DNA of 64,000 nt from Escherichia coli (GTDB taxonomy: Bacteria; Pseudomonadota; Gammaproteobacteria; Enterobacterales; Enterobacteriaceae), in the NCBI RefSeq assembly GCF_017348835.2, contig NZ_CP071375.1; one strand, 5' to 3'. Shown piece after piece: positions 1 through 3,000 of the stretch (the stretch's first letter is position 1; the number at the start of each line of letters is the position of its first letter). The position numbers were made by a program.

Positions 1-3000
1 GGCGGAAAAACAGCTCCAGAAACAGCGCACGAAATTTCACTTTTTGTTCGGTATAACCGAGTAACTGGCGGGTCGTAAACAATCCCATAAATCAGTTCCT
101 TTCATTCAGAAATCAGTCAGGCCACCGCGGTGGCCTGATAACGTGTTACGGCAACGCCGCGTGACTCAGGGCACTGCCGGCAAAGGCATTTGCCTTTTTG
201 TGTTCATCCACACTTTCAGGCCAGCGGATTGCCTCCGTCGCAAAGGTCCCCGACTTGTAATAGGTCAGTACCGTCTCTGTGCCTTCAAGCGGCAGTACCA
301 GTATGCCAACTGCACTACCGGCTTTCTGTCCGTCCCAGACCACCAGTTTCCCGCTGGCTTCATCCAGCATCAGGGGCGTCAGTGCCGGTGTTGCCGAGGA
401 AATCCCGCTGCTGCCTGTGGCGGTATGAGCCGGATCATTACCGGCAAAAATACGTACTTCCGCACGCTGTTCAGTGATGTTTTTCGTTACCATATTGTAA
501 AAACCTCCTGTTGATGGTCAGCACTGACTTCATGGCATGGCCATGAGCATTTTCACGTCCGCATCACCGTCTGCTGACGTCTGTGGCACGCCACCCTGTA
601 CCGCAGCCGGTGAATGGTTCGCCATGATGCGTTCAAACAGGGCGGTTGTGGATGCAGAGACCGGTTCTGCCTTACCTGATCCCGCAGCCAGCACAGCCCG
701 GGCGCTCTCCACAGTCATTCCCGGGCAGGCAGCCAGCTGTTCAGCCTGCGCCTCAGCCCCTTTTGCCTCATCCAGTGCCATGATCTGATCACGGAGTGAG
801 GGTCCGGCATCCGCCTGCGGTGAAGCAGCCAGGATCGGGCGGGCTTTTTCCACCGTCATCTCCGGCATCGCCGCCAGCGTTGCCGCCAGTTGTTCACGAC
901 CGTTCGCTTCTTCACACGCCATAATGCGATCGGCTTCACTCTGCGCGGATGCCACCGGCTGCTGCGGTGCCGCCGCGGCCAGAATCGCCCGGGCCTGTTC
1001 AACGCTCATGCCCTGTTGTCCTGCCAGCATCGTGGCAAGCTGTTCACGTCCTTTCGCTTCCTGGCATGTCAGGATCCCCATCACTCGCTGGTTCTCCTGC
1101 GCGGCGGCTTCCGTTGCAGTTAATTGCGGCATAGTGCCTCCTCTGACATTACTGTTCAGCGCCGTGGCCATCACACTGATGGCATCCGACGCATTGACTA
1201 ATTCATCCGCCAGCCCGGCATCAATGCCGGACTGACCTTCAAAAACGGCGGCCTCTGTTCCCGTGACGGCATCAACAGACAGACCGGTAAACATCGCCAC
1301 TTTTTCGGCAAACATCCGGCGCGCCGCATCAATGCGCTGCTGCATGTCCTGGCGAACCTCTGCCGGTAAGGCTTCAAACTGATTGCCATCCACCTTGTGC
1401 GTCCCTGAGTAAATCAGCGTGATATCCACACCGGCCTGCGCCAGATGACCGGCATAGCTGACATGGCTCATCATCACGCCAATGGAGCCGATACGGGATG
1501 TCTGGGTAACCAGCCGTCGGGAGCAGGCCGACGCCAGCAGCATGGCTGCAGAACAGGCCGTGTCATTGCACAGTGCCCAGACCGGCTTCTGCTGACGGAG
1601 GCGGTAAATCATGTCAGCGCAGTCAAACGCGCCGGTGGCCTGCCCGCCCGGACTGTCAATGTCCAGCAGTATGCCCCGCACCTGGCTATCTGCCATTGCC
1701 TGCTGAAGACAGGCGACAATGCCGTCATAGCCAGTCATTCCGGAAAATGGCCGCATCCCCCCCAGCCGGTGCACCAGCGTGCCGGTCACCGGCAGTACCG
1801 CAATACCGTTCACCACCCGGTAAACACGGGCCGGTCGTTTACCTCCGGCCATGTACTCGTCCGTTTCAGCCAGCATTCCGGGAGCATCAAGCTGTACCTG
1901 CTGTTGTGGTACCGAAAGACTTGCTGCCCCCATCTCGCGCCCGAGCGCGCAAAAGAAAACCCGCGCATAGGCGGGCTCCAGAAGCAGCGGTTCATTGAAT
2001 GCTGCGGCAATAATGTGTGAAAGATTACGTCTCACGTGGTGTTGTCTCCTCTTCCGGCCTGCGACTCTCCGCTATCTGCTGCTGATACGCCTGCGCTATC
2101 CACACCGGACGTGAGAGTCCGGCTTTTTCCCGCTCTGCAGATTCCCTGACCTGCTGGCGGAAAATGTCCTGATAATCCTCGCCCATCAGCGCCAGCTCTT
2201 TCTCATACGTGCTCAGTCCGGCCTCAATGCGCATCACTGATTCCTGAACCTCCTTGAGCCCGTCAATGGCCATTCTTCCGGCTCCAATCCACTCAGCCCG
2301 TGACCAGGCTGATCGCGCCTGATAAAAATCAAAACGTGCCCGTGGCGGACGAATAATCCCCCGAAGAAGTGCCTCTTCCAGCCAGCAGGAAAACATCTGC
2401 GTGGCCAGCCGGGACGCAATAAATTTTCGCCGCCCCATAAAATAGCGCCACGACTCATTGGCGGATGCGCGGGCACTTGAATAACTGACCTTCGAGTAAT
2501 CACGGGACAACTGTTCGTAGGAAACGCCAAGACCGGCGGCGATATACCGCAGCAGCGCCTGTTCAAGCGCCGAAAATCCATTGTCTGAATCCTGCGCGGT
2601 CTGAAGTTTCAGATCATCACCGGGGAAAAGGTGCGGAATTTTGACACCGCCCAGCGTCACGCTATTCGTGTCATACCAGGTGGAGAACTTATCCAGAATA
2701 TTAATAAGCGGATTATCCTTCTGCCCCTGCGGCGCACCGGCGATATATTCAAAGGCCTTTTCGGTATCAAGGTCACTTTCAATCGTCGCTGCATACATCG
2801 CCTTCACTATGGCCGACTGAAGCTGTGTTGCCTGCAGGGAATCGAGCATCTTCAGCCGTTCCATGACGCTGTAAAACTGATTGGCCCCACGGGTCTGCCC
2901 GTCCTCCACCGGCTCGAAAATATGCAGCATGGCCGGACGCCCGGTGGGAAGTTCACGCGGGATCCGTTCCCATCGTCCACTCCCGGAGAACGGAAAATCA

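What the first reader, a model, noticed from the sequence alone, without database searches (positions are those of the whole stretch)
530..1150. Triplicated ~40-aa repeat in the C-terminal region of the prohead protease/scaffold protein
The protein contains three tandem diverged copies of a motif like ...EA(K/N)GREQLA(T/A).LA....M(S/T)VE.AR.ILAA..., also visible as about 120-bp DNA periodicity. Repeat number in scaffold domains can tune capsid assembly and is a site of length polymorphism.
Basis: seen in the sequence. Interest (0 to 1): 0.25.

Follow-up and report, generated by a model that had tools for sequence, protein, structure and literature searches.

The report
Triplicated helical module in phage scaffold
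The tail end of this prophage's head protease/scaffold protein really does carry three old, conserved copies of a 43-residue helical mini-domain that phage lambda has only once; it is a tidy but modest variation on a well-known virus-assembly protein.

Summary
Window 530-2035 (minus strand) encodes a 501-aa homolog of lambda gpC (S49 prohead protease with a nested Nu3-type scaffold) in an E. coli lambdoid prophage.

- **Repeats:** residues 317-359, 367-409 and 414-456 are three tandem copies of a 43-aa module. They share 47-61% identity, with z = 12-17 against shuffles.
- **Period:** the DNA period is 141-150 bp, not 120 bp, and the copies are only 60-67% identical at DNA level.
- **Copy number:** lambda has one copy. 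Relatives have 1, 2, 3 or 4. Among 144 diverse cluster representatives, 134 have one.
- **Stability:** within this lineage three copies is the rule (70 of 75 alleles).
- **Age and selection:** the copies have position-specific counterparts in Salmonella prophages, and each is under purifying selection (pN/pS 0.10-0.41).
- **Fold:** AlphaFold2 folds the module as a compact three-helix mini-domain (pLDDT >90). No Pfam or NCBIfam family covers it.

I read the modules as protein-protein interaction domains of the scaffold core, most likely for self-association, with the conserved C-terminal tail docking onto the capsid protein. That functional part is inference. The finding is a new variant of a known kind, of low to moderate interest.

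The parts
530..2035 (-). gpC-like gene: S49 prohead protease fused to the scaffold region (501 aa, GTG start; stop codon at 530-532)
   Evidence: ORF list; PF01343 Peptidase_S49 E=5e-35 over aa 146-293; phrog_53 head maturation protease E=3.5e-228; 61% identical to the lambda gpC protease domain; annotated 'S49 family peptidase' in RefSeq
1157..1807 (-). S49 (SppA-like) protease domain, aa 77-293
   Evidence: phmmer against PDB: B. subtilis SppA 3rst E=1.4e-15 over aa 77-290, with the nucleophile serine column aligned; Pfam
1137..1144 (-). In-frame internal Shine-Dalgarno sequence AGAGGAGG, 4 nt upstream of the internal ATG
   Evidence: Read directly from sequence. Lambda has aGGAGGgcgaATG at the equivalent Gly-Gly-x-Met position. 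The GG(x)M motif is kept in the homologs
530..1132 (-). Predicted nested Nu3-equivalent scaffold ORF (Met302-Pro501, 200 aa), in the same frame as gpC
   Evidence: Internal ATG at 1132-1130 preceded by an SD. Metagenome gene calls start exactly here (P0002, P0003, P0009, P0019, P0021). Expression was not shown here
959..1087 (-). Repeat unit 1 (aa 317-359, RVMGILTCQEAKGREQLATMLAGQQGMSVEQARAILAAAAPQQ)
   Evidence: pN/pS 0.10; 81% identical to unit 1 of Salmonella homolog P0028
809..937 (-). Repeat unit 2 (aa 367-409, EADRIMACEEANGREQLAATLAAMPEMTVEKARPILAASPQAD)
   Evidence: pN/pS 0.41; 75% identical to Salmonella unit 2
668..796 (-). Repeat unit 3 (aa 414-456, LRDQIMALDEAKGAEAQAEQLAACPGMTVESARAVLAAGSGKA). 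It lacks the near-invariant Arg of the EAKGRE loop
   Evidence: pN/pS 0.19; AlphaFold2 three-helix mini-domain with pLDDT >90
533..667 (-). C-terminal tail (aa 457-501) with a predicted helix (TALFERIMANHSP) and an acidic-then-hydrophobic end (DADVKMLMAMP). It corresponds to lambda TALDRLMQGAP...DLLNTPV
   Evidence: Alignment to lambda; tail length is constant at about 35-52 aa across the family; helices at model residues 60-73 and 92-97

Best explanation
This is the scaffold (Nu3-equivalent) portion of a lambda-type gpC/Nu3 gene pair in an E. coli lambdoid prophage. The full-length product is an S49 prohead protease. An in-frame internal start at Met302 should also give a 200-aa scaffold with the same C-terminus. 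The scaffold part consists of three tandem 43-residue three-helix mini-domains joined by short Pro/Gln/Ala/Ser linkers, followed by a ~45-residue tail. Lambda has a ~50-residue low-complexity spacer, one module and the same kind of tail. The module is the signature domain of this scaffold family. The two extra copies arose by old in-frame tandem duplication, sit where other family members have a variable spacer, and are each maintained by selection. Occasional unequal recombination gives 2- or 4-copy alleles.

Proposed mechanism (inferred): the tail docks onto the E-type major capsid protein. The modules are protein-protein interaction domains of the scaffold core, most likely mediating scaffold-scaffold (and protease-scaffold) association. 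On this reading, three copies make each chain multivalent and replace a floppy spacer with folded beads.
For: **Shown**
- Identity and synteny.
- Significant triplication.
- One copy in lambda, and in 134 of 144 diverse cluster representatives; 1018 clusters match the module profile.
- The last module keeps the family's fixed distance from the C-terminus. The first module starts at residue 317, whereas the median start in single-copy members is 370. Total length (501 aa) is typical for the family (median 483).
- Position-specific orthology with Salmonella units (81/75/64% against 50-58% between positions).
- Purifying selection on every unit (pN/pS 0.10, 0.41, 0.19; protease 0.12; linkers about 1.2).
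- In-register 2-copy fusions, a 4-copy allele, a 57-bp deletion and a 45-bp duplication.
- Compact three-helix fold with pLDDT >90.
- Conserved internal SD plus ATG in both lambda and the window.
- Two distant family members in the single- and two-copy classes still sit in a Phage_portal_2 / S49 / HDPD / Phage_cap_E module.

**Inferred**
- Lambda Nu3 is reported to interact with itself, with gpC, with gpE and with the portal (PMC3224144).
- Assigning the tail to capsid docking and the module to self-association rests on analogy. The analogues are the P22, phi29, 80alpha and P2 scaffolds and the herpesvirus UL26/UL26.5 nested protease-scaffold pair (own knowledge).
- It also rests on the report that MD8-type protease-scaffold-capsid fusions lack the last ~40 scaffold residues (PMC8508860).
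Against: - No experiment or complex model here shows what the module binds.
- The module could equally be the capsid-binding element, because it is the most conserved piece of the scaffold and co-occurs with E-type capsid proteins.
- Unit 3 has lost the near-invariant Arg, so the three copies may not be equivalent.
- Use of the internal start was not demonstrated for this prophage.
- The module hit in MD8 gp5 is very weak (4.6 bits).
Confidence: 0.5

Rival explanations
1. Each module is itself the capsid-protein-binding element, functionally like the C-terminal helix-turn-helix of the P22 scaffold. Three copies would then let one chain cross-link up to three capsid subunits, replacing scaffold oligomerisation with tandem multivalency.
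For: The module is the most conserved part of the scaffold region across 1018 clusters and co-occurs with Phage_cap_E capsid genes. It has a conserved polar EAKGRE loop on a small helical domain. A lambda Nu3-gpE interaction is reported (PMC3224144).
Confidence: 0.3
2. The modules bind the portal (lambda-family portal protein). They would serve to nucleate head assembly and recruit the protease to the portal vertex.
For: Nu3 is required for incorporating the portal protein gpB, and C-B and Nu3-B interactions are listed for lambda (PMC3224144). The portal gene is adjacent and overlaps the C-like gene. PHROG 21 contains portal-protease-scaffold fusions that match the repeat.
Against: About 100-200 scaffold copies per prohead (own knowledge) far exceed the 12 portal subunits. 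L088 carries the module with capsid, decoration and protease genes, but no portal gene is called in the 11-kb stretch.
Confidence: 0.08
3. The array is a fast-evolving, slippage-prone contingency site whose copy number is regularly reset to tune capsid assembly or size. This is the stronger form of the first reader's reading.
For: Copy number ranges from 1 to 4 among relatives, and in-register fusion, deletion and duplication alleles exist.
Against: Units are only 60-67% identical at DNA level and TRF finds no array. 70 of 75 close alleles, and nearly all listed E. coli genomes, keep exactly three copies. Units are orthologous by position in Salmonella prophages and under purifying selection. 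The capsid protein has the same length as lambda gpE and is 59% identical, which gives no hint of a different capsid size.
Confidence: 0.05
4. The apparent repeat is a by-product of Ala-rich, low-complexity composition.
For: The region is 24% alanine.
Against: Composition-preserving shuffles never reach the observed scores (z = 12-18.6, 0/500). A gapless 43-column alignment has 7 invariant columns across 18 units. A profile of the unit finds 1018 clusters at E <= 1e-3. The unit folds confidently.
Confidence: 0.01

Closest known systems
Bacteriophage lambda gpC / gpNu3 (S49 prohead protease with nested in-frame scaffold gene)
   Same: Same gene order (W, B portal, C/Nu3, D, E). The protease domain is 61% identical. 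The internal SD+ATG sits at the same Gly-Gly-x-Met position. The 43-aa module is shared (58% identity to unit 1), and the C-terminal tail is of the same kind.
   Different: Lambda has one module preceded by a ~50-aa low-complexity spacer (Nu3 about 132 aa). This protein has almost no spacer and three modules (scaffold part 200 aa; total 501 against 439 aa).
Herpesvirus UL26 / UL26.5 (assemblin protease-scaffold and nested scaffold)
   Same: The logic is the same (own knowledge). A protease and an abundant scaffold share a C-terminus through an in-frame nested gene, the C-terminal tail docks on the major capsid protein, and an internal region self-associates.
   Different: The protease fold is unrelated and there is no sequence similarity. 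No tandem three-helix modules are present. This is an analogy only and was not tested here.
P22 gp8 scaffolding protein, C-terminal helix-turn-helix coat-binding domain
   Same: A small helical domain near the C-terminus of a phage scaffold that mediates assembly contacts.
   Different: No detectable homology (hhalign probability 0.8%). P22 has a two-helix, basic, single-copy domain at the extreme C-terminus. Here the domain is three-helix, neutral or acidic, internal and triplicated.
UBA / CUE / RuvA-domain-III-like three-helix bundles

Membership tests
Lambda gpC/Nu3-type S49 prohead protease-scaffold | S49 (SppA-like) serine peptidase domain in the N-terminal two thirds | tested here: met
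   PF01343 E=5e-35, 121 bits against a cutoff of 24.9; SppA structures 3rst/4kwb E~1e-15, with the nucleophile Ser column aligned
Lambda gpC/Nu3-type S49 prohead protease-scaffold | Position in a lambda-type head module (portal_2 upstream, gpD-type decoration and gpE-type capsid genes downstream) | tested here: met
   ORFs and Pfam: Phage_portal_2 E=3.5e-100, HDPD E=4e-24; RefSeq annotation of the identical locus
Lambda gpC/Nu3-type S49 prohead protease-scaffold | Direct sequence homology to lambda gpC, including the scaffold region | tested here: met
   tblastn 54% identity over aa 3-344. The global alignment continues through the module and tail. The Nu3 region is 54% identical over 65 aa
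Lambda gpC/Nu3-type S49 prohead protease-scaffold | In-frame internal translation start giving a separate scaffold protein | tested here: inconclusive
   SD (AGAGGAGG) plus ATG at Met302 lies at the same place as lambda's aGGAGGgcgaATG. Actual initiation cannot be shown with these tools, and the lambda start position is from memory
Lambda gpC/Nu3-type S49 prohead protease-scaffold | Scaffold and protease are degraded and removed from the procapsid before DNA packaging | not testable with these tools
   Needs protein analysis of proheads
P22 gp8-type scaffold (helix-turn-helix coat-binding domain) | Sequence or profile homology to gp8 | tested here: not met
   hhalign of the 73-sequence module+tail alignment against P22 gp8: probability 0.8%, E=0.07, and the aligned stretch is not the HTH
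Helix-hairpin-helix motif (PF00633) | Score at or above the Pfam gathering threshold | tested here: not met
   13-15 bits against a cutoff of 24, E=0.018-0.09, in unit 3 only. The scaffold has net charge -10, which argues against DNA binding
[not shown]
   [not shown]
Curated domain families (Pfam-A, NCBIfam) | Any model covering the 43-aa module | tested here: not met
   No family was found for the 200-aa scaffold part in NCBIfam. Pfam gave none above threshold, and none at all for a single unit. Only the PHROG clusters 8399, 1999, 17040 and 8940 cover it

The most novel reading that the evidence does not exclude
The 43-residue three-helix module is an uncurated, very widespread scaffold domain (over 1000 clusters at 50% identity, reaching S49 peptidases of cyanophages and satellite-like islands). 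It would be the real assembly-organising element of lambda-type heads. Tandem multiplication of it would then be an alternative evolutionary route to scaffold multivalency, replacing oligomerisation or a disordered spacer. If so, copy-number variants (1, 2, 3, 4) would form a natural allelic series for dissecting how scaffold valency controls procapsid nucleation and fidelity.
Probability: 0.25. Interest if true: 0.45.

Novelty: new variant of a known kind. Interest (0 to 1): 0.27.

Why it matters
Lambda's scaffold Nu3 is one of the least understood parts of a textbook assembly pathway. Its only confidently folded, family-wide conserved piece appears to be this small module. That piece occurs once in lambda but three times, each copy under selection, in a head module carried by about a third of complete E. 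coli genomes, including O157 and O103 strains. Natural 1-, 2-, 3- and 4-copy alleles also exist. Together these give a ready-made handle for asking what the module binds and whether scaffold valency matters. The module also deserves a curated domain family. None of this overturns current understanding; it is a descriptive refinement.

Tried and rejected
- **Tandem Repeats Finder** on 400-2100 found only an 18-bp, 1.9-copy array. The repeat is too diverged at DNA level for this tool.
I replaced it with an autocorrelation script.
- **The word-indexed protein search** returned mostly partial proteins from broken assemblies. It was still useful for spotting copy-number variants, but not for a census. 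The census came from the exhaustive profile search and from 80 IMG/VR loci.
- **Single-sequence AlphaFold2** of the 200-aa scaffold was mediocre (pLDDT 64). The MSA-based model of unit 3 plus tail was better.
- **P22 gp8 homology** was rejected.
- **The HhH/DNA-binding reading** was rejected (sub-threshold Pfam hit, acidic protein).
- **A fourth partial repeat in the tail** (ALFERIMA) was rejected as not significant.
- **The Medina et al. 2010/2011 papers** on gpC and gpNu3 are not held in the library. Statements about Nu3 size, disorder and start site therefore rest on my own knowledge and on citations in PMC3224144.
- **Literature searches** for a described Nu3 or scaffold repeat found nothing relevant.
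- **The module match in MD8 gp5** is too weak to use as evidence.
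Full report
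**1. What is at the coordinates**

Window 1-6000 carries, on the minus strand, a lambda-type head-gene block.
- Head decoration gene (146-493; Pfam HDPD, E=4e-24).
- A 501-aa ORF at 530-2035.
- A lambda-family portal (2025-3617; Phage_portal_2, E=3.5e-100).
- A gpW-like gene and the large terminase.

The stretch is 100% identical (one 1-bp gap) to the chromosome of E. coli PE164. It is 99.8% identical to O103:H2 strain 12009, where the ORF is annotated 'S49 family peptidase'.

The 501-aa protein has an S49 peptidase domain (PF01343, E=5e-35) and matches SppA structures at E~1e-15 over aa 77-290. It also matches PHROG 53 'head maturation protease' end to end. Its first ~295 residues are 61% identical to lambda gpC.

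**2. Is the repeat real?**

Yes.
- A self-Smith-Waterman of residues 291-501 scores 198, against 44 +/- 8 for composition-preserving shuffles (z = 18.6).
- The three units align pairwise with 23/38, 21/45 and 22/36 identities. z is 12-17, and none of 500 shuffles reaches the observed score.
- A gapless 43-residue register fits all three units and 15 units from homologs. The consensus is xxDRIMALxEAKGRExLAxxLAxxPGMTVEQAKxiLAAAPxxx, with seven invariant columns.
- The units are aa 317-359, 367-409 and 414-456 (window 959-1087, 809-937, 668-796). They are followed by a 45-aa tail (533-667).

The spacing is 47-53 codons. In-frame DNA autocorrelation peaks at 150, 141 and 291 bp, while lag 120 is at background. 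At DNA level the units are only 60-67% identical. That is why Tandem Repeats Finder sees nothing.

**3. Comparison with lambda and other relatives**

Lambda gpC (439 aa) aligns through the protease domain. It then has a ~45-50-residue Thr/Ser/Ala/Gln-rich spacer that the window protein lacks. After that come one copy of the module (RIMGILNCEEAHGREEQARVLAETPGMTVKTARRILAAAPQSA) and a tail (TALDRLMQGAP...DLLNTPV) that matches the window's tail (TALFERIMANHSP...DVKMLMAMP).

Both genes have an in-frame Shine-Dalgarno sequence and ATG at the same Gly-Gly-x-Met position just after the protease domain. The window has AGAGGAGGcactATG with the ATG at 1132-1130. Lambda has aGGAGGgcgaATG. In lambda, an in-frame nested gene, Nu3, encodes the scaffold (Shaw & Murialdo 1980, cited in PMC8508860). 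The exact lambda start at this Met is from my own knowledge. By the same logic the window should make a 200-aa scaffold (Met302-Pro501), against about 132 aa in lambda. Several metagenomic gene calls start exactly at this Met. Expression was not shown here.

**4. Copy number across homologs**

A profile of the 43-aa unit was searched exhaustively against 1.84 billion cluster representatives.
- It finds 1018 clusters at E <= 1e-3.
- Of the 144 new best representatives, 134 carry one copy, 8 carry two and 2 carry three.
- In full-length single-copy members (n = 54) the module starts at a median residue of 370 (range 303-486). It ends a median of 48 residues from the C-terminus. Median protein length is 483 aa.
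- In the window protein the last module keeps that fixed distance from the C-terminus (47 aa), and the first starts at residue 317.

So the two extra modules occupy the place of the family's variable spacer, and the total length (501 aa) is ordinary for the family.

Variation among closer relatives:
- Salmonella prophage proteins have three copies.
- An E. coli protein (P0031, 48 member sequences) has four.
- P0020 and P0021 have two, with junctions that are in-register fusions of unit 1 and unit 2.
- P0009 and P0011 carry a 19-aa deletion inside unit 2.

**5. Is it a polymorphic hot spot?**

Only weakly.
- Of 75 complete alleles from IMG/VR contigs chosen by the protease domain alone (>=97% identical there), 70 are 501 aa with three copies. 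One is a 451-aa two-copy allele (a precise 50-aa unit1/unit2 fusion). One has a 4-aa deletion. Three are truncated.
- In complete E. coli genomes the region is present in 1869 of 5426, and nearly all listed matches are collinear over 901 bp.
- The two non-collinear examples I fetched are a 45-bp in-frame duplication inside unit 3 (516 aa, strain UTAK-4) and a 57-bp deletion in unit 2 (482 aa).

**6. Age and selection**

Units group by position, not by protein. Window units 1, 2 and 3 are 81%, 75% and 64% identical to units 1, 2 and 3 of Salmonella P0028, against 50-58% between positions. The triplication therefore predates the split of these prophage lineages. In the four-copy protein P0031 the copies are 75-92% alike, which indicates a separate, more recent expansion.

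Among 60 distinct 501-aa coding sequences the pN/pS values are as follows.

| Region | pN/pS |
|---|---|
| Unit 1 | 0.10 |
| Unit 2 | 0.41 |
| Unit 3 | 0.19 |
| Protease domain | 0.12 |
| Short linkers | about 1.2 |

Each copy is thus maintained by selection. Unit 3 in the E. coli lineage has Ala in place of the Arg that is conserved in at least 90% of the 73-sequence family alignment (EAKGAE instead of EAKGRE). The copies may therefore not be equivalent.

**7. Structure**

With a 73-sequence alignment, AlphaFold2 models unit 3 as a compact mini-domain of three short helices (model residues 13-18, 27-35 and 41-51). pLDDT is 91-92 across the module. A further helix lies at the start of the tail (pLDDT 70-82) and a short one at the extreme C-terminus. 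A single-sequence model of the whole 200-aa scaffold shows the same helices repeated three times with low-confidence linkers.

- Foldseek against viral models returns only homologs, such as the prohead protease of Salmonella phage 37 and the S49 peptidase of Synechococcus virus S-ESS1.
- No solved structure matches the scaffold region by sequence.
- No Pfam or NCBIfam model covers it. A helix-hairpin-helix hit is sub-threshold.
- A profile comparison with the P22 scaffold gp8 is negative (probability 0.8%).

**8. Mechanism**

Shown here:
- This is the scaffold half of a gpC/Nu3-type gene.
- It contains three selected copies of the family's signature mini-domain plus a conserved tail.

Known from the literature: lambda Nu3 is reported to interact with itself, with gpC, with gpE and with the portal (PMC3224144).

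Inferred: in every scaffold whose contacts are mapped, the extreme C-terminus docks on the capsid protein and an internal region self-associates. Examples are P22, phi29, 80alpha, P2 gpO and the herpesvirus UL26/UL26.5 pair, which has the same nested-gene logic (own knowledge; P22 and phi29 context). MD8-type phages fuse protease, scaffold and capsid protein in one chain and are reported to lack the last ~40 scaffold residues (PMC8508860). That fits a tail which docks in trans. The module match I found in MD8 gp5 itself is too weak to count.

My best reading is therefore that the tail is the capsid-docking element. The modules would be scaffold-core interaction domains, most likely for scaffold-scaffold and protease-scaffold association. 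Three copies would make each chain multivalent and replace a floppy spacer with folded beads. I put this at about 0.5 overall. Identity, architecture and evolutionary history are near certain. The binding partner is a guess.

The main rival (0.3) is that each module binds the capsid protein directly and the chain cross-links subunits. Portal binding (0.08), a fast contingency locus that tunes capsid size (0.05) and a compositional artefact (0.01) are less likely, for the reasons given under the rival explanations.

**9. Wider context**

Two distant family members examined in their genomic setting keep the S49 / HDPD / Phage_cap_E gene set.
- One lies in a contig with baseplate genes, after a Phage_portal_2 gene.
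- The other lies in a small island with an AlpA regulator, a D5-type primase and a small terminase, next to host genes. This is reminiscent of capsid-forming satellites.

**10. Verdict**

The finding is a new variant (a triplicated signature module) of a well-known system, the lambda gpC/Nu3 protease-scaffold. The gene itself is common and already annotated. The internal triplication, and the module as a family-wide domain, do not appear in the curated libraries or the literature I could search. Interest is low to moderate.

Noticed in passing
[not shown]
   Followed up: yes
L088 1-11248 (ENA ERZ27239116 k141_801914): A single-copy family member (P0172, 415 aa) sits in a small island with AlpA, a D5-type primase, Phage_cap_E, HDPD, the S49 protease-scaffold and a Nu1-type small terminase, next to host fis/dusB/prmA. 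No portal or tail genes are called. It looks like a capsid-forming satellite (PICI-like).
   Followed up: no
window 668-796 (unit 3): Unit 3 of the E. coli lineage has Ala where at least 90% of family modules have Arg (EAKGAE instead of EAKGRE). The Salmonella unit 3 keeps the Arg. This may indicate sub-functionalisation or partial decay of one copy, although pN/pS is still 0.19.
   Followed up: partly
window 3804-5789: The large terminase ORF is intact in the window (642 aa from the MNISEQQ start at 5732). The otherwise identical locus in E. coli PE164 is 1 bp shorter and is annotated as a frameshifted pseudogene.
   Followed up: partly
window 14624-14873: Cluster of three tRNA genes on the minus strand (Arg-tct, Arg-tcg, Met/Ile-cat), of the kind seen in lambdoid/Stx-type prophages. 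The sRNA STnc100 lies next to it (13681-13853).
   Followed up: no
window 10612-10728 (+), 44096-44212 (+), 57111-57227 (-): Three identically scoring ALIL frameshift pseudoknots (120.3 bits each), each beside a 295-aa ORF (10657-11544, 44141-45028, 56295-57182). These are three copies of one IS3-family insertion sequence, one of them inside the prophage.
   Followed up: no
window 18169-18343, 25423-25474, 36526-36655, 38927-39132: Small RNAs at Rfam gathering score: sok antitoxin, DicF, EFASI, and a C4 antisense RNA with its a1/b1 target and isrK. The last group suggests a second mobile element (P4- or P1-type immunity region) around 33-43 kb.
   Followed up: no
window 29929-30018, 31010-31085, 54832-54907, 57969-58044, 60376-60451: tRNA-Ser(cga) followed by four tRNA-Asn(gtt) genes. 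The tRNA-Ser is a plausible prophage boundary or integration site, and the Asn-tRNA cluster is a known island-integration region of E. coli (own knowledge).
   Followed up: no
P0045 (270 aa): A metagenomic protein in which a DNA-methyltransferase-like N-terminus (…DPPYG…) is joined to a three-copy scaffold region. It is probably a chimeric or misassembled gene call.
   Followed up: no
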